A stretch of DNA of 64,000 bases, taken from the NCBI GenBank assembly GCA_963835215.1, contig CAWIES010000004.1, positions 371,121-435,120 on the forward strand. The letters run 5' to 3'. Positions 7,857 to 15,469 of the stretch are shown in pieces (positions within the stretch are counted from its first letter, which is position 1; each line of letters starts with the position of its first letter). The notes under the pieces are model-generated. The model ran no database searches. It was not told where the DNA came from and worked only from the letters and a program-made list of their open reading frames with translations. The position numbers and the translations under genes were made by a program. Source of the stretch: an uncultured Alphaproteobacteria bacterium. GTDB lineage: Bacteria > Pseudomonadota > Alphaproteobacteria > Rhizobiales > Beijerinckiaceae.

Positions 7857-8549
7857 TCACGGCTCGTCGGCTTCGCCGATCGGTCCCCAGACCTGTTCGA
7901 GCGCACGTCGGCGCTTCGAGCGGCTCTTCGTCGGGGCGCAGGCTCGCGTCATCGTCCGGCTGGGGCACGCCGAAGCCCGGCGGCAGTTTGCCGTCGAACA
8001 GGCCCGCGCCTTGCAATTCGTCGAGGCCGGGCAGGTCGCCGATCGCATCGAGGCCGAAATGGACTGAGGAATTCCAGGCTCGTGCCATAGGTGATCGGCC
8101 GGCCCGGCGATTTGCGGCGCCCGCGCATGCGCACCCAGCCCGCCTCCATCAGCACGTCGAGCGCGCCTTTGGAGACGGCGACGCCGCGGATTTCCTCGAT
8201 GTCGGCGCGCGTCACCGGCTGGTGATAGGCGATGATCGCCAGCGTCTCGATCGCCGCGCGCGACAGTTTGCGCTTGTCCTGCGTCTTCGCGCGCCAGCAG
8301 CCAGGCAAGATCGGGCGCGGTGCGAAACGTCCAGCGCCCCGCGACGCGCACCAGGTTGACGCCGCGCTCGCTATAGACGCGCTGCAATTCGGCCATCACC
8401 GCGGCGACGTCGGCGCCTTCCGGCAGGCGTGCGGCGATCGTCGCCTCATCGAGCGGCTCGGCGGCGGCGAACACCAGCGCCTCGGCGATGCGCAGGTCCT
8501 CCGGGGCGAAACGCGGCGGCGCGTCGGTCGTCAAACAATTTGGCGACAT
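7857..8549 (-). CDS. scpB: SMC-Scp complex subunit ScpB (several apparent indels)
   Basis: EALVFAAAEPL, RKLSRAAIETLAIIAYHQPVTRADIEEIRGV, GRPITYGT and HFGLDAIGDLPGLDEL across three frames. Confidence 0.9.
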   Translation of the reverse strand: MSPNCLTTDAPPRFAPEDLRIAEALVFAAAEPLDEATIAARLPEGADVAAVMAELQRVYSERGVNLVRVAGRWTFRTAPDLAWLLAREDAGQAQTVARGDRDAGDHRLSPAGDARRHRGNPRRRRLQRRARRADGGGLGAHARAPQIAGPADHLWHEPGIPQSISASMRSATCPASTNCKARACSTANCRRASACPSRTMTRACAPTKSRSKRRRALEQVWGPIGEADEP

Positions 8550-8555
8550 TTCCCA

Positions 8556-9376
8556 TCATTGGCGTCTCAGCTCGATTGCGCTTGCGGCGTCGGCGAGCCG
8601 GGCGCGCGCCACAGATCGGCGCGAAGGCCGCGTCTTGCCGGAGTTCGATCTTTCCTTCGCGCACCAGTTCGAGCGAGGCGGAAAAGGACGATGCGCGCGC
8701 CGTGCGGCGCAACTTCGGATCGACGCAATAGTCGATCAGCCAGAATCGAGATCGGTCCAGTCCGACGTCCCGCCGAGCAGCCGCGTCAGCGCTTCGCGCG
8801 CCTCCGCCAGCGACCAGACCGCGCGCGGCTGCATGCGCACCCGGGCGCGCGCGTGCTTCTGGCTCTGGCGCGCGTAGGCCGACAGGAGATCATAGAGCGT
8901 CGCCTCGAACACCGGCGTGCTGGCGACTTGCGACCGCCTCGGGCTCGCCGCGGGCAAAAATGTCACGCCCGAGGCGCGGCCGGTTGATCAGCGCAGCGCC
9001 GGCGCGCCGGATCTGCCTCCAGCCGGCGCAGGCGCTGCGCGAGCGCGTCGGCAAGCTCCGCCGCGTCCCCGCTCTTCCGGCCTTCGGCGGCGCGGGCAGC
9101 AGCAGGCGCGATTTCAGATAGGCGAGCCAGGCGGCCATCACCAGATAATCGGCGGCGAGCTTCCAGCCGCAGCTTACGGGCCGCCTCGACGAAGGCGAGA
9201 TATTGCTCGGCGAGCGCAAGGACGGAAATGCGCGCCAGATCGACCTTCTGGCGGCGCGCGAGCTCAAGCAGCAGGTCGAGCGGCCCCTCGAACCCGTCGA
9301 GATCGACGGTGAAGGCAGGCTCGCCCTCGGCGCGCTCGACTTGGAAATCGTCTGCAAATGCGCCGACGCCGGCCAC
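8556..9376 (-). CDS. scpA: Segregation/condensation protein ScpA (several apparent indels; ends approximate)
   Basis: FEGPLDLLLELARRQKVDL, LAADYLVMAAWLAYLKSRLLLP, ASSFSASLELVREG. Confidence 0.9.
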
Positions 9377-9912: not shown

Positions 9913-10612
9913 TCAGTAGCGGCGCAGCAGACTGATCATGCGGCCCTGGATGCGCACCCGGTCGGGGCCGAAGATGCGGGTCTCGTAGGCGGGATTGGCG
10001 GCCTCCAGCGCGACCGAAGCGCCGCGTTTGCGCAGGCGCTTGAGCGTCGCCTCTTCCTCGTCGATCAGCGCCACGACGATGTCGCCGGTCTCGGCGGTGT
10101 CCTGCTTGCGAATGATGATCGTGTCGTTCTCGAAGATGCCGGCGTCGACCATCGAGTCGCCGCGCACTTCGAGCGCGAAATGCTCGCCCGGCCCGAGAAA
10201 ATCCGGCGGCATCGCGATCGTGTCGGTGCGGGTCTGGATCGCTTCGATCGGCGTGCCCGCCGCGATGCGGCCCATCATCGGGATCATCGCGATCGGCGGC
10301 AGCGCCTCGGCGCCGGCTGCGCGGCCTGACCCGGCCGAGATTGCCGGCAATGACGCTCGGCGAGAATTTCTGCGCGCGCGGCGCGCCAACCGTCGCCGAT
10401 TCGGGCAGGCGCAGCACCTCGATGGCGCGGGCGCGATTGGCGAGGCGGCGAATGAAGCCGCGCTCCTCCAGCGCCATGATCAGACGATGGATGCCCGACT
10501 TCGAGCGCAGATCGAGCGCGTCCTTCATTTCGTCGAAAGAGGGCGGAACCCCGTCGTTCTGCAGGCGCTCGTGAATGAAGCGCAGCAGCTCGCTTTGCTT
10601 TCGTGTCAGCAT
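9913..10612 (-). CDS. lexA: SOS repressor LexA (apparent frameshift near 10320)
   Basis: [10 protein letters not shown]...[23 protein letters not shown]; cleavage site GRIAAG; VRGDSM; EATLKR. Confidence 0.96.
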
Positions 10613-10685
10613 ATCAGGCTCCCAACCGCCCAGCGCGAATCAACGGCTCGCTCACGGGCGAAGCGGAGAATCGCGGGCTAGGCGT

Positions 10686-10727
10686 AAACAAATCACGAAC
10701 AGATGCGTATCTGTTCGCGCTGTGTTC
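10686..10727. promoter_or_regulatory. Tandem alphaproteobacterial LexA (SOS) boxes
   Basis: GTTC-gcgctgt-GTTC at 10713-10727 and AAAC-aaatcac-GAAC at 10686-10700, upstream of lexA. The inner halves also form the palindrome GAACAGAT-N4-ATCTGTTC. Confidence 0.85.
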
Positions 10728-10790
10728 CGCAAGGGGGAGGCCGAACATATCCCCTTGCGACATGTACGGGGAATCGTGCTACAAAAAGGC

Positions 10791-11916
10791 ATGGAGATCA
10801 TCCCGCGCATCGCACACTGGCGACGCGTCGCCGGCAGGGCGTGGCGTTTTCTCTACGCTGCGCCGATGGCGGCTCTCAGCGCGTTCGTTTTTGTGCGGGA
10901 CGAATTTCTGTCGCCGGAGCGCGCCGCAAGTCTCAAACTTCCTGCGCTATTTTCGGACTATCTGCCCGGCTGGCTGTTGAACATGCCCTGGTATGGCTGG
11001 GCTCTCGCTTCGCTCGTAGTCGTGATTTTTGTTGTGCTCGAAGGATCGTACCGCGCTTATCGAGAAGGACTCGGCCAACCGAGGGGTGCCTTCTGCGCCT
11101 GCTGAAGTGGCCGATATGGCGGTCCAAGACGTGTTTTTTTACAAGGACGCCGACGTTTTGGAAAACGCTACATTCGCCACCGTTGGGCAAGAAATTCTAG
11201 ACGCATTATCTCTTGGCAAATTGAAAGGATATGGGCGACAGGCGAGCATTTTAAATCGCGGTTATGTAGGGCATCCCAACTTAGCCCCGATAGATCAATC
11301 CTATTGGCGGACCGCCGCCTTCACTTATGAGTATTTTGGCGACGGCGATCGTACACACGACTTTCATGTCGAGACGAGACCGCCGGCAAACGGGGCTGCA
11401 TATAGGGACGTCCGCTTCGACGGCGCTGCGGTCAAAGCCCTCTGGCCCAAGTCTACGGCATCCCCACAGATATTCGCCATGAAGGCGGCTTATCTAATCC
11501 TGACCCAGAGCGAGTGGGCCAGAAGCCTAGCTATCAGGCCTGATTCTATGGTCGCAGGATGGTACGAGGATATGGTCTCCAAGAAGGAAGCAATCAAAAG
11601 GAGATTGCTCAAAGCCCTTGAGAGGGACCTTCACGACAATCTGAGAGCTGGCCGTGTCGCGGCGTGGGGACGCGTCGACCGGCATTCCCCCTTAGCGCCA
11701 ATTGCCGCAGAAGAGTGGAGCGATATCAAACTGTCCATGGAAGAAGTTGATTTCAAAAACCTCAGCACCGGGTTTTGCATCAATTTCACGGTGCCGGCGG
11801 CGTACAGAAAAACAGTGTACCAAGACGTGAAATTTTCAAAGGAGACTGTCTTTAAGCAGTATCCTCTCCTGCCAGAGCCTTTCGGGATTGATGATGGCGA
11901 TCAAAAAATTACCTGA
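10791..11916 (+). CDS. Hypothetical membrane-anchored passenger protein with an internally duplicated domain; probably one gene with a 1-nt indel near 11055
   Basis: ORF 10791-11105 has two hydrophobic segments and overlaps ORF 11029-11916. Removing one base gives ...VLEGSYR-LIEKDSANRG.... Confidence 0.65.
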
Positions 11917-12097
11917 CGATCCGCACCCGGAAGCCGAAGAGAGATTTCGTCGCCTCCTGCGTTCGATGGTCAGCGCGCCGCCACCTGAGCCGGACGCGAA
12001 AACGCAATCAGAAGAATCTCAAACATCAAATGCGGAGAACGGCGAAGATTGTGGCGATATTCAAACTCCGCCAGATACTTCGGAAGATGCTTCTTAG
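11888..12097 (+). CDS. Small hypothetical protein inside the IS (69 aa)
   Basis: Starts within the 3' end of the passenger; EAEERFRRLLRSMVSAPP helix; its 3' part is antisense to the transposase. Confidence 0.35.
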   Translation: MMMAIKKLPDDPHPEAEERFRRLLRSMVSAPPPEPDAKTQSEESQTSNAENGEDCGDIQTPPDTSEDAS

Positions 12098-12869
12098 AGA
12101 CGTGAATGTAAGTGCCGTTGACGCCGCGCTTTAGCATCGCCCAGAACGACTCAATCGTGTTCGTGTGAGCGTCGCCGCGAACGTACTCGTAGGCGGAATG
12201 GTTCACGCTCTCATGGCCGAAGCCGAGAATGTCGAGCCCGCGATAGACGGTCGCGTCATCTGTCATAACGCGCGAGCCTTCGACAACCCAACGCTTCACC
12301 TGCGGCAAGATTTGATTGGTGTGGCGCCCCGCGATCTGGCGCGTGACGAGATCGCCGTCACGCTCGACCATGCCGAGTACGACCGCTTTGTCATCATGTC
12401 CTGCGCGATCATGTCCGCCGAGAAAGGCTTCGTCGATTTCAACGACCGGGGCCTTTTGGCCCGCTCCGCCTAAAGGGCGGTCACCATCGACCCTGCCCAT
12501 GTGCTCGCGGATTTTGTGGCACATGCGCCAAGCAGTCTTATAGGTCACGCCGATCTGGCGCTGAACCTCTTTCGCGGCCACGCCGTTGCGGGACGACGTG
12601 AAGAGGAACATCACAAAAAACCAATCGGTCAGCCGCGTCCGCGTGTTTTCAAAGGGCGTGTCGGCGGTCGGATAGACCTGATAGCCGCAATGCTCGCACT
12701 CAAAGCAGCGGCGGAGCTTGACACGGTAGAACCGCCCCTCCGCTTGGCAATTCGAGCAAACGAGGCGCTGGCCGTAGCGCACCCGCATCAAGTGATCGAG
12801 GCAAACGTCCTCGTTCGGGAAGCGAGCCTGAAACTGTTTGAGGGTCGTGATCTTCGGTGATTTGCTCAT
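11970..12869 (-). CDS. IS1595-family (ISXO2-like DDE) transposase with N-terminal Zn ribbon
   Basis: CSNC..CEHC, GVTYKTAWRM, VEIDEAFLGG, VMTDD, VNHS..EYVRGDAHTNTIESFW, KHLPKYLAEFEYRHN. Confidence 0.95.
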   Translation of the reverse strand: MSKSPKITTLKQFQARFPNEDVCLDHLMRVRYGQRLVCSNCQAEGRFYRVKLRRCFECEHCGYQVYPTADTPFENTRTRLTDWFFVMFLFTSSRNGVAAKEVQRQIGVTYKTAWRMCHKIREHMGRVDGDRPLGGAGQKAPVVEIDEAFLGGHDRAGHDDKAVVLGMVERDGDLVTRQIAGRHTNQILPQVKRWVVEGSRVMTDDATVYRGLDILGFGHESVNHSAYEYVRGDAHTNTIESFWAMLKRGVNGTYIHVSKKHLPKYLAEFEYRHNLRRSPHLMFEILLIAFSRPAQVAAR

Positions 12870-12929
12870 GCCGATTTTATATCAGGTTTCGACGTACATG
12901 TCTAGAGGGGATAAGGCCGGGGGCGGCTC

Positions 12930-13350
12930 GACCCTCTGTCGAGCGCGGTCGTTCGGCTCGTTTTTTCCGTGCGAACGCGACCACCATCGCCGAGTTTGAG
13001 CCCGTCATTCCGCCGCATGTCACGCGCGAGGCGCAGATCATGACCGACCAAGTCGCTTGGTATCCCGAAATTGGCACCGAGTTCACCACCACGACAGCGT
13101 GAACCACGCCAGGGACGCATATACGCGTCACGAAGACGGCACGCTCGTTACAATCAACGCCGGCGAGGGCTTCTATTTTATCATTAGGCGCGGCATGAAG
13201 GGCGTCTAGCAACAGTGCAGGCAAAAGCGCTTGCATCGCTATCTGGGCGAGTACGATTTCCGCTACTCGAACCGCTCAAAATTCGGCGTTGAAAACGCTG
13301 AGCGCACGTTCAAGGATTGCTGCTGGCATCACGGGAAGGCGATTGGCGCA
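12930..13350 (+). pseudogene. Decayed C-terminal half of a second IS1595-family transposase
   Basis: Reads VERGRSARFF...EAQIMTDQ...VNHARDAY...INAGEGFYFIIRRGMKGV*QQC...LHRYLGEYDFRYSNR, with a frameshift and an in-frame TAG. Confidence 0.8.
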
Positions 13351-13466
13351 TCGGCCATTTGGTTCGCGCGTGTCCCTCTAACGCGTGTTCCTCTAAATGG
13401 AAGGCTTCAGCGCCCCGAGATAAGCGGCGACCATGTTTGGCCCGAACATCACAGGGAGTATTTGAA

Positions 13467-13742
13467 ATGAAAGCCACTGCGTGGGTCTCACTCCTTACCG
13501 TCGCGTCCGTAACGAACGTTTTTGCCGCCGAGACCGTCATCAAAGGACCAAGCGGCGTAAGCATCATTTGTTCCCAATTTTCGAGGCAGCCGGACGGAAA
13601 CTGGAAATCAAGTCAGGATGCGACGTTGAGTTATCCTGACAAACCGGGCTCATTCGGTAATAACAGTTTCGGGTCACATGGAATTTCCGTCGGCGGCGTT
13701 GATATTGCCGTCTTTCTTGATGAGAAATGCGGCAAGATCTGA
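13467..13742 (+). CDS. Small secreted hypothetical protein (91 aa, two Cys)
   Basis: GGGAG SD; signal peptide MKATAWVSLLTVASVTNVFA; C..F....DGNW and LDEKC. Confidence 0.65.
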   Translation: MKATAWVSLLTVASVTNVFAAETVIKGPSGVSIICSQFSRQPDGNWKSSQDATLSYPDKPGSFGNNSFGSHGISVGGVDIAVFLDEKCGKI

Positions 13743-13980
13743 TTACTCAAACTACGACGCGTTCGCCCATACTTCTGCGCCTTCCTCCGTGACCATTGCG
13801 GTTCCAAGAGTCTTCGCGCCGCGATCGACGCGAAGGGTGCAGAAATGTTCTGCGGTGGTCGTGGAAGAGCCTGCTGACAACAGGAGGGAAAACCCCGTGC
13901 GCACGGCAATAGCAAGCAAGGATTTCGTCAGTTTTCTCCAATAAAAGCCCGCTCCACTTAGCGGCCTTTTTGTTCTCGGG

Positions 13981-14508
13981 TTAAGCCGCTCTCGGCGATG
14001 CACCGCGATCCTCGCCAGCGCCGCCTGGTTTCCTGTGACTCGGACTGGCGACGGCTCGCATCTTCGTTCCATCCAGCGCCACCATGCGCCCGCCGATAAG
14101 CCCCTGTTCGCGACAGAACTGGACGAAGGCCGCGCTCGCGGCGACGATCGCCTCCGGATTGTCGTGCCGGAACGCGGCAATGATGCGATAGTCAGGTGCC
14201 AGTCGGCGCATCAACCACAGCGCTTCCAGGTCGCGGACACACGCCTTCTCCAGATGCCGCGATGATCGGACTTGGTTGAGATAGCCCTATATATAGAGGC
14301 GGAGCATCTCGCCAGGTTGGAAGCTTGGCCTACCAGTCGCCGCAGCCACGACCCCGTTGAAACCCAGTTCGGCTATGTCGAGGCTGGCGACGAATGCGTC
14401 GATAGCGCGAACGAGCGCGTCAAGCGCGACGTAGTCGTCAACACACGCCGGCAGCAGGCTGATCTGATCTCGGCAATCGCCATCGATGAGACTCACAGGC
14501 CGCCCCAT
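13981..14508 (-). pseudogene. Truncated IS1182-family transposase (N-terminal part, internal stop)
   Basis: RDQISLLP..VDDYV...VRAIDAFV..LD...TGRP.F.P..ML.LYI*GYLNQVRSSR.LE...LAPDYR.IA.FR..N...VALDGTKMRA. Confidence 0.85.
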
Positions 14509-14587
14509 TTCTTTCCGTGCGTGGATTCTATGCTGATTTGCGCTATCGTCCCAAGTTCTTGGGGCGTCTCCGGGGCATTGCCGTCAG

Positions 14588-15469
14588 CTATTCCAGCATC
14601 GCCGGCTTCAAGAACTCTTCGCACCATTGGCGGAATGTCGTCGGCATACGATCGCTCACGCCAACTTCGGCCATGTTGTCCACGCCTTCATTCTTGGCCC
14701 TGTACATGTCCACAAAACCCTGCGCGATGGATTCGCTCGCGCCGCGTTTGAGGAACTGCTCCTTCAACTGTTCAAACGAAATTTGCTGATAGCGGACCTC
14801 GCGGCCAAGCACCTCGGATATGATCGCGGCCATGTCGTTGAAGGACAGGTCGTCGGGCCCTAGCAGCGCGATCTCCTGCTGACCGGACCAGTTGCCGCCG
14901 CTGAGAAGCTTGGCGGCGACGGCGCCGATATCGCGCGTCGCCGTGAGGGGCAGCTTGCGATCCGGATCGATGGGGCCAGAAAACATCCCTCTTTCCTTGA
15001 TCGGCGCCACGTAGCGGATCGCGTTGTCCATGAACGACGGCATGGCGAGGCCTCGGAAATCCGCGCCCGTGCTCATCAAAAGATCGTCCGTGTGGATTGA
15101 CAGAGTCAGCAGCCCGGCGGCCTCTTGCCAGGGTGTGTTCCGGCCGAGCCCAGTTACGCTGACCACGCGCTTGACGTGATGGCGACGGATCGCCTCGGTG
15201 GCCGGCCGGGTGAAGCCGATATAGGCCTCCCCGGCGTCCTTGGTCATATCGGGAGGCACGAGCCAGAACAGGCTGTCAGCTCCTTCCAGCGCAGCGTCAA
15301 TCACGGCGGCGTCGCCATGGGAGCCTTCGACGACGTCGACGGAGCGCCGGATATCTTGGGGAAGCTTGGTGGCGTCCCGGACGATCACGCGGACGGGCGC
15401 CCCGGCCGCGATCAGGCCGTGGACGACATGCTGGCCAATCTGGCCGGTGGGGGTGGTGACAACGATCAT
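14588..15469 (-). CDS. NmrA-like NAD(P)H-binding protein
   Basis: MIVVTTPTGQIG Rossmann start; ATRDIGAVAA; GPDDLSF. Confidence 0.85.
   Translation of the reverse strand: MIVVTTPTGQIGQHVVHGLIAAGAPVRVIVRDATKLPQDIRRSVDVVEGSHGDAAVIDAALEGADSLFWLVPPDMTKDAGEAYIGFTRPATEAIRRHHVKRVVSVTGLGRNTPWQEAAGLLTLSIHTDDLLMSTGADFRGLAMPSFMDNAIRYVAPIKERGMFSGPIDPDRKLPLTATRDIGAVAAKLLSGGNWSGQQEIALLGPDDLSFNDMAAIISEVLGREVRYQQISFEQLKEQFLKRGASESIAQGFVDMYRAKNEGVDNMAEVGVSDRMPTTFRQWCEEFLKPAMLE

What the first reader, a model, noticed from the sequence alone, without database searches (positions are those of the whole stretch)
10791..11916. IS passenger: membrane anchor plus two tandem copies of an unrecognised domain
Repeat 1 is EILDALSLGKLKGYGR...LAPIDQSYW...YRDVRFDGAAVKALWP and repeat 2 is DLHDNLRAGRVAAWGR...LAPIAAEEW...YQDVKFSKETVFKQYP. 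The shared pattern is L.D.L..G.h..[YW]GR-x-LAPI....W-x-Y.DV.F....V...[WY]P. If the 1-nt indel near 11055 is an error, this is a protein of about 375 aa with two N-terminal TM segments. The DNA is visibly more AT-rich than the host genes. The helix-G-strand-GR part loosely recalls excisionase/MerR-like winged-helix folds (speculative). A TM effector joined to repeated sensor domains on mobile DNA is an architecture seen in abortive-infection defence genes, so this is a candidate new defence or stress module.
Basis: partly seen in the sequence, partly recalled or inferred. Interest (0 to 1): 0.72.

Follow-up and report, generated by a model that had tools for sequence, protein, structure and literature searches.

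The report
Transposon-borne membrane protein, likely phage defence
A small transposon parked next to the lexA gene carries a membrane-anchored protein with two copies of an undescribed domain; relatives join the same domain to known cell-killing enzymes, so it is probably a new one-gene anti-phage suicide switch, though this is untested.

Summary
Window 10791-11916 encodes one ~374-aa protein read in two frames. The break lies at 11074-11097, probably the G-run at 11083-11086, not near 11055. It is most likely an assembly indel, because lexA and scpB just upstream are split the same way.

The gene and an IS1595 transposase are bracketed by 46-nt inverted repeats (10741-10786 and 12875-12920), so it is cargo of a "transporter IS". 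Its GC3 is 0.57-0.66, against 0.87 for lexA.

A full HMMER scan found 362 relative clusters. Of 125 with a full N-terminus, 110 have membrane helices before the domain. Others carry HNH, PNP-type, TIR or SEFIR effectors of known defence systems instead. No neighbouring gene is conserved.

Best reading (about 50%): a stand-alone effector-plus-sensor abortive-infection protein. Enrichment in defence islands could not be tested.

The parts
10741..10786 (.). Left terminal inverted repeat of the IS1595-family transporter IS
   Evidence: It matches the reverse complement of 12875-12920 at 34/46 positions. Its inner end lies 5 nt before the passenger ATG. The outer ~30 nt are missing in the metagenomic relatives L001/L002.
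10791..11085 (+). Passenger gene, first reading frame: N-terminal membrane part (TM1 about 10839-10895, TM2 about 10983-11039) and start of the linker. An alternative GTG start lies at 10776.
   Evidence: It is homologous to the N-terminus of P0005, which continues in frame into the domain part.
11074..11097 (+). Interval that must contain the one-base frame break (GGGG run at 11083-11086)
   Evidence: Frames compared with P0005. lexA and scpB nearby are split in the same way, and genome completeness is 86% in only 4 contigs.
11104..11466 (+). Domain copy 1 (P0001 residues 26-146)
   Evidence: Alignment A5 of 107 relatives. AlphaFold pLDDT 92.8, pTM 0.85. HMM match E 2.2e-34.
11464..11898 (+). 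Linker helices and domain copy 2 (P0001 residues 146-290). The stop codon is at 11914-11916.
   Evidence: Alignment A6. hhalign against copy 1 gives probability 98.1%. The two-domain model has pLDDT 91.3.
11970..12869 (-). IS1595-family transposase (299 aa)
   Evidence: Pfam DDE_Tnp_IS1595 at 2.6e-37 and Zn_ribbon_IS1595 at 1.3e-10. NCBIfam transpos_IS1595 at 1.1e-56.
12875..12920 (.). Right terminal inverted repeat of the IS
   Evidence: Its inner end lies 6 nt before the transposase ATG.
10713..10727 (+). GTTC-N7-GTTC repeat upstream of lexA, 14 nt outside the IS end (context, not part of the element)
   Evidence: It is conserved in L001/L002. That this is the alphaproteobacterial LexA operator type rests on my own knowledge, not on a test here.

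Best explanation
Shown: window 10741-12920 is one cargo-carrying IS1595-family insertion sequence of foreign base composition, inserted 14 bp from the lexA operator repeat. Its cargo is a single gene of about 374 codons. The apparent frameshift is most likely an assembly indel. The protein has a two-helix N-terminal membrane hairpin. Positive charges on both sides of the hairpin suggest that the rest of the protein is cytoplasmic. That rest consists of two homologous copies of a ~120-residue alpha/beta domain that no library describes. Inferred: the protein is a stand-alone abortive-infection-type defence protein. The tandem domain would act as the sensing or regulatory module that holds the N-terminal effector inactive until a phage-derived cue is met. 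The membrane hairpin would then assemble and damage the membrane, stopping the infected cell. In sister proteins the same sensor would instead release an HNH nuclease, a PNP-type nucleosidase, a TIR domain or a SEFIR domain. The cue and the activation step are unknown.
For: One gene with an artefactual break: homologues are in a single frame, and lexA and scpB are split likewise. IS cargo: inverted repeats plus an IS1595 transposase, with low GC3. Real domain family: 362 representative clusters at E<=1e-3 and 128 at E<=1e-10, and confident AlphaFold models. The two repeats are homologous. Architecture: 110 of 125 representatives with a full N-terminus have at least one predicted membrane helix before the domain. 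Effector swaps, including in close two-repeat relatives at ~50% identity: P0007 has PNP_UDP_1 (9e-23; PADLOC CBASS 'PN-superfamily' effector 1.3e-13). P0008, P0023 and P0006 have an HNH domain matching CBASS/SAVED-HNH/Shedu effector models (down to 1e-30). P0033 has bSEFIR (4e-29). P0022 has TIR_2 (2.6e-12; ThsB-like). It stands alone: no neighbouring gene is shared among seven loci. It is patchy and rare, like accessory genes: 1 of 200 other genomes of the family and 1 of 400 other genomes of the class. Some copies lie beside an integrase or on an IS (this window).
Against: No phenotype is available, and no defence-island enrichment could be measured, because most relatives sit on contigs of 1-4 kb. 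One full-context copy (L012) lies between ordinary BatA/DUF4159 and methyltransferase genes. The window protein itself matches no PADLOC model. The window copy is out of frame as assembled, and the copy in the relative is cut by an IS5-type insertion, so this locus may be decaying. The enzymatic fusions are a small minority: 5 of the 122 scanned representatives, plus P0006. The membrane-anchored majority could in principle do something else.
Confidence: 0.5

Rival explanations
1. Conflict module that is not aimed at phages. It would be an addiction or stabilisation toxin that benefits the IS or another mobile element, or an effector of inter-bacterial or plasmid conflict, with the tandem domain acting as its regulator.
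For: It is carried inside an IS. HNH, TIR, PNP and membrane effectors also occur in toxin-antitoxin and other conflict systems (own knowledge). An integrase lies next to the L008 copy.
Against: No antitoxin-like partner gene is conserved beside it. Only the window copy, among the loci read, sits in an IS1595 unit. The effector domains match defence-effector models best.
Confidence: 0.17
2. Dead cargo. The frameshift is real and this copy is a decaying pseudogene with no present function, whatever the family does elsewhere.
For: The gene is in two frames as assembled. The orthologous copy next to lexA in the relatives has lost the outer IS end and is truncated by an IS5-type element. More IS debris lies to the right.
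Against: Conserved housekeeping genes lexA and scpB show the same single frame breaks within 3 kb. The genome scores 86% complete in only 4 contigs, as expected of an indel-rich assembly. Apart from the one break, both frames are open and conserved to the end.
Confidence: 0.15
3. Membrane-tethered nucleic-acid-binding or transposition accessory protein. The two domains would be MerR/excisionase/TniQ-like winged helices that bind DNA, for example to regulate or target the IS.
Confidence: 0.08
4. Programmed +1 ribosomal frameshift that produces a short membrane peptide and a full-length fusion.
For: The two overlapping frames both stay open for about 75 nt.
Against: All homologues are in one frame. 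Neighbouring housekeeping genes are broken in the same way. No conserved slippery site was seen.
Confidence: 0.02

Closest known systems
Signal-activated effector proteins of CBASS, Thoeris and related systems (N-terminal membrane, HNH, PNP-type or TIR effector plus a C-terminal sensor such as SAVED)
   Same: It shares the modular logic: one sensor module combined with interchangeable N-terminal killing modules. The HNH, PNP-type and TIR parts of relatives match these effector models directly.
   Different: The C-terminal domain matches no SAVED or other PADLOC, Pfam or PDB model. No cyclase or other partner gene is conserved beside it. It would have to sense its cue on its own.
Single-gene defence proteins such as bSEFIR (PADLOC PDLC03957) and the candidate PDC-M68A
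   Same: It is stand-alone. P0033 shares the SEFIR domain (4e-29). P0006, P0008 and P0023 share the HNH part of PDC-M68A (down to 1e-30).
   Different: Only the effector part of those models matches (profile positions 87-198 of 412 and 6-118 of 253). The domain studied here lies outside them, and the window protein itself has no match.
Transporter IS (tIS): IS1595-family insertion sequences with passenger genes (Siguier, Gagnevin and Chandler 2009, as cited in PMC3129680)
   Same: It has an IS1595 DDE transposase with a zinc ribbon, terminal inverted repeats and a non-transposition passenger gene inside the repeats.
   Different: The passenger belongs to an undescribed family. No 8-bp target duplication is visible (flanks GGGGGAGG and GGGCGGCT). 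The subgroup could not be assigned without ISfinder.
MerR / excisionase (Xis) / TniQ C-terminal winged-helix domains
   Different: Only half of the domain is covered. It has an extra three-stranded sheet and a helix. It is acidic rather than basic. There is no sequence similarity.

Membership tests
IS1595-family transporter IS | DDE transposase of the IS1595 type with an N-terminal zinc ribbon | tested here: met
   PF12762 at 2.6e-37, PF12760 at 1.3e-10, NF033547 at 1.1e-56.
IS1595-family transporter IS | Terminal inverted repeats enclosing the transposase and the passenger | tested here: met
   34/46 matches between 10741-10786 and 12875-12920. This is by far the longest inverted repeat in the 4-kb region.
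IS1595-family transporter IS | 8-bp direct target duplication (expected length is from my own knowledge) | tested here: not met
   The flanks GGGGGAGG and GGGCGGCT do not match. The right flank is other IS debris, so a later rearrangement is possible.
Known anti-phage defence families (PADLOC-DB 2.0) | Match of the window protein to a defence HMM | tested here: not met
   No hit at E<=1 for either part. Only the N-terminal effector domains of relatives match.
CBASS-type effector | SAVED or another nucleotide-sensor domain, with an adjacent cyclase gene | tested here: not met
   No SAVED match in the domain region. No gene is shared among the neighbourhoods of seven loci.
Stand-alone effector-sensor abortive-infection proteins (functional class) | The same C-terminal module combined with different toxic N-terminal modules across homologues | tested here: met
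   Membrane hairpin in 110 of 125. HNH in 3, PNP-type in 1, TIR in 1 and SEFIR in 1.
Stand-alone effector-sensor abortive-infection proteins (functional class) | Enrichment next to other defence genes or on mobile elements | tested here: inconclusive
   Most contigs are 1-4 kb. One copy lies by an integrase, one is on an IS (this window) and one sits among ordinary genes.
Stand-alone effector-sensor abortive-infection proteins (functional class) | Protection against phage with death or arrest of the infected cell | not testable with these tools
   This needs expression and phage challenge.
MerR / excisionase winged helix | Significant fold match over the domain | tested here: inconclusive
MerR / excisionase winged helix | Basic DNA-binding surface | tested here: inconclusive
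   Only net charge was computed: median -3 and pI 5.6 over 107 copies. Surface charge was not mapped.

The most novel reading that the evidence does not exclude
The ~120-residue domain defines a previously unrecognised family of one-gene anti-phage systems with an apparently new fold. The same sensor would drive five different killing modules: membrane hairpin, HNH, PNP-type, TIR and SEFIR. Here the system travels as cargo of a minimal insertion sequence, so an IS alone can spread immunity. Because it is parked 14 bp from the LexA operator, its expression may also be tied to the SOS response.
Probability: 0.4. Interest if true: 0.75.

Novelty: new variant of a known kind. Interest (0 to 1): 0.6.

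Why it matters
If the family protects against phages, it adds a new sensor domain to the catalogue of bacterial immunity. No profile library used here describes this domain, and no solved structure resembles it. Its natural effector swaps give ready-made controls for working out how one sensor activates unrelated killing modules. It would also show that a plain insertion sequence of about 2.2 kb can ferry a complete immune gene. The practical lesson for annotation is that the gene is invisible to gene callers in this assembly, because an indel splits it.

Tried and rejected
- **Profile libraries.** Pfam, NCBIfam, PADLOC and PHROGs on the window protein and on 122 relatives gave no family for the domain.
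- **PDB by sequence profile.** Nothing below E 0.14.
- **Foldseek.** Searches against PDB and viral BFVD, with both the two-domain and the single-domain model, gave nothing (best E 0.14-1.1).
- **Self-association.** A self-association prediction of the soluble part (2 copies) returned 'no answer'. It is not used as evidence either way.
- **Plasmids.** tblastn against plasmid records found no match.
- **Context survey.** The scans of genome and metagenome collections with close-relative patterns gave only three loci (L012, L015, L016). Exact-protein look-ups mostly returned contigs of 1-4 kb or no DNA. A second word-based search with the profile added almost nothing.
- **Other copies of the IS.** None was found in this genome.
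- **Link to IS1595 in relatives.** No IS1595 transposase lies near the relatives whose DNA was read. One relative's weak Zn_ribbon_IS1595 hit (1.4e-4) was not followed up.
- **Promoter scan.** The sigma-70 consensus scan found no promoter in 10600-13000, so the promoter-in-the-repeat idea stays untested.
- **Programmed frameshift.** Rejected, because all homologues are in one frame and neighbouring genes are broken too.

Full report
**What is in the sequence.** Between lexA (9913-10612, minus strand) and an NmrA-like gene (14588-15469) lies a stretch with 52-61% GC in a 67% GC window. Its left 2.2 kb has three parts: an ORF in two frames (10791-11105 and 11029-11916, plus strand), a 299-aa IS1595-family transposase on the minus strand (11970-12869), and inverted repeats. 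The transposase matches Pfam DDE_Tnp_IS1595 at 2.6e-37, Zn_ribbon_IS1595 at 1.3e-10 and NCBIfam transpos_IS1595 at 1.1e-56. The 46-nt inverted repeats lie at 10741-10786 and 12875-12920 and match at 34 of 46 positions. Each repeat ends 5-6 nt before a start codon, one for the passenger and one for the transposase. The unit is therefore a cargo-carrying "transporter IS", a class first described for the IS1595 family (Siguier et al. 2009, as cited in PMC3129680). It is the only copy in this genome. No 8-bp target duplication is visible. The DNA to its right is further IS debris, including a fragment of a second IS1595-type transposase at about 13090-13275.

**One gene, and the break is probably an error.** Frame A encodes the membrane part and frame B the rest. 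The metagenomic relative P0005 carries a similar N-terminus fused in frame to the start of the domain part. P0004 (375 aa), P0009 (361 aa) and many others are single-frame proteins with the same layout. Comparing the frames places the break between 11074 and 11097. lexA is split into two frames relative to the intact LexA of a relative. scpB is split into two frames, each covering half of the Pfam model. The genome scores only 86% complete although it is in 4 contigs. An indel-rich assembly is therefore the likeliest cause, but a real pseudogene is not excluded.

**The protein.**
- Residues 65-83 form a strong hydrophobic helix and residues 17-35 a weaker one. Arginine-rich segments before the first helix and after the second suggest a hairpin with both ends in the cytoplasm (inference).
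- The soluble part folds with high confidence: pLDDT 91.3 and pTM 0.79 with 82 aligned sequences.
- It folds into two copies of one domain with the order strand, helix, helix, beta-hairpin, short helix, three strands, helix. The first copy alone gives pLDDT 92.8.
- The copies are homologous: BLASTP E 2e-5, the repeat-1 profile hits repeat 2 at 6.5e-7, and hhalign gives 98.1% probability, E 1.1e-13.
- The conserved motif includes an aspartate in helix 2, Trp/Tyr-Gly-Arg at the start of the hairpin, an invariant Trp, and Tyr-x-Asp ... Trp-Pro near the end.

**No known family or fold.**
- Pfam, NCBIfam, PADLOC and PHROGs give nothing for the domain, in the window protein or in 122 relatives.
- A profile search of PDB sequences gives nothing.
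- Foldseek against PDB and BFVD gives nothing, with best E of 0.14-1.1.
- The top rows are nonetheless coherent. They are the TniQ C-terminal domain, MerR-type regulators (CvkR, GlnR, TnrA, SoxR, BmrR), excisionases (Pukovnik Xis, GIsul2 Xis), BldC and XPA, each aligned over about 55 residues.
- The copies are mostly acidic (median net charge -3, pI 5.6). That argues against general DNA binding.

**The family.** A full HMMER search of 1.84 billion representatives found 362 clusters at E<=1e-3 and 128 at E<=1e-10. Among the 150 best, 125 have at least 40 residues before the domain, and 110 of those have at least one predicted membrane helix there. The exceptions are informative:

| Protein | N-terminal module | Match | Domain copies |
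|---|---|---|---|
| P0007 | PNP_UDP_1 | 9e-23; PADLOC CBASS "PN-superfamily" effector 1.3e-13 | both repeats, ~50% identical to ours |
| P0008 | HNH | CBASS / SAVED-HNH / Shedu effector models, down to 1e-30 | both repeats |
| P0023 | HNH | same models | one copy |
| P0006 | HNH | same models | one copy (from a genome of the same genus) |
| P0033 | SEFIR | bSEFIR 4e-29 | one copy |
| P0022 | TIR | TIR_2 2.6e-12; ThsB-like | one copy |

No neighbouring gene is shared among seven loci. The family is rare in isolate and MAG genomes: one other genome of 200 in the family and one other of 400 in the class.

**Interpretation.** One C-terminal module combined with interchangeable toxic N-terminal modules, with no conserved partner gene and a patchy distribution, is the signature of stand-alone effector-sensor immune proteins. 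I therefore read the window gene as the membrane-effector form of such a protein. The tandem domain would be the sensing or auto-inhibitory part, and the hairpin would be the killing part.
- Shown: the architecture, the homology, the effector swaps and the IS carriage.
- Inferred: the defence role, the direction of signalling, oligomerisation and the trigger.
- Against: there are no context statistics, because most relatives are on contigs of 1-4 kb. One copy lies among ordinary genes (L012). The locus shows signs of decay.

**The neighbour lexA.** The left IS end lies 14 nt from a GTTC-N7-GTTC repeat (10713-10727). From my own knowledge this is the alphaproteobacterial LexA operator type. Metagenomic relatives (L001, L002, L015) carry a diverged copy of the same gene at the same place beside lexA. 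In those copies the outer ~30 nt of the left repeat are deleted and the gene is cut by an IS5-type element. The insertion is therefore old or site-preferring, and it has been immobilised and inactivated in that lineage. Whether LexA controls the passenger is untested.

**Verdict.** This is a new variant of a known kind of system: an effector-sensor defence protein carried as IS cargo, built on an undescribed domain.

Noticed in passing
window 9913-10612 (-): lexA is split into two reading frames between about 10285 and 10334, relative to the intact LexA of a metagenomic relative. There is no homopolymer at the junction. This is probably an assembly indel.
   Followed up: yes
window 7857-8549 (-) and 8736-9376 (-): scpB is split into two frames, each matching half of the Pfam ScpB model. 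The neighbouring scpA-like gene also appears to lie in several frames. This suggests that indel errors are common in this assembly, and gene calls in this genome should be treated with care.
   Followed up: partly
window 12921-14587: The rest of the low-GC islet is mobile-element debris. It holds a C-terminal fragment of a second IS1595-type transposase at about 13090-13275 (+), transposase-like fragments on the minus strand at 13752-14508 (no Pfam hit), and an unassigned 141-aa ORF at 13317-13742 with a hydrophobic N-terminus.
   Followed up: partly
L001:1073-1850 and L002 (metagenomic relatives): An IS5-type element (DUF4096 ORF, ends GGGTCCGGAC...) is inserted in the relative's copy of the passenger gene after the '...GHPNL' codons. 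The sequence beyond the insertion no longer resembles the gene. The outer ~30 nt of the left IS1595 repeat are also missing there.
   Followed up: partly
L005:191-862 (+), genome G117: A 223-aa ORF with no Pfam match lies just upstream of the HNH-type relative P0006. Its context (prophage or island) was not examined.
   Followed up: no
L006:5694-5885 and L007:604-795: A 63-aa ORF precedes the PNP-type relative P0007 in both contigs that carry it. It may be a small partner gene or only shared ancestry of the two contigs.
   Followed up: no
window 10694-10719: A perfect-looking palindrome (GAACAGAT.. ..ATCTGTTC) overlaps the GTTC-N7-GTTC repeat upstream of lexA. It was also picked up as terminator-like on the minus strand. 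It could be a second operator half-site arrangement.
   Followed up: no
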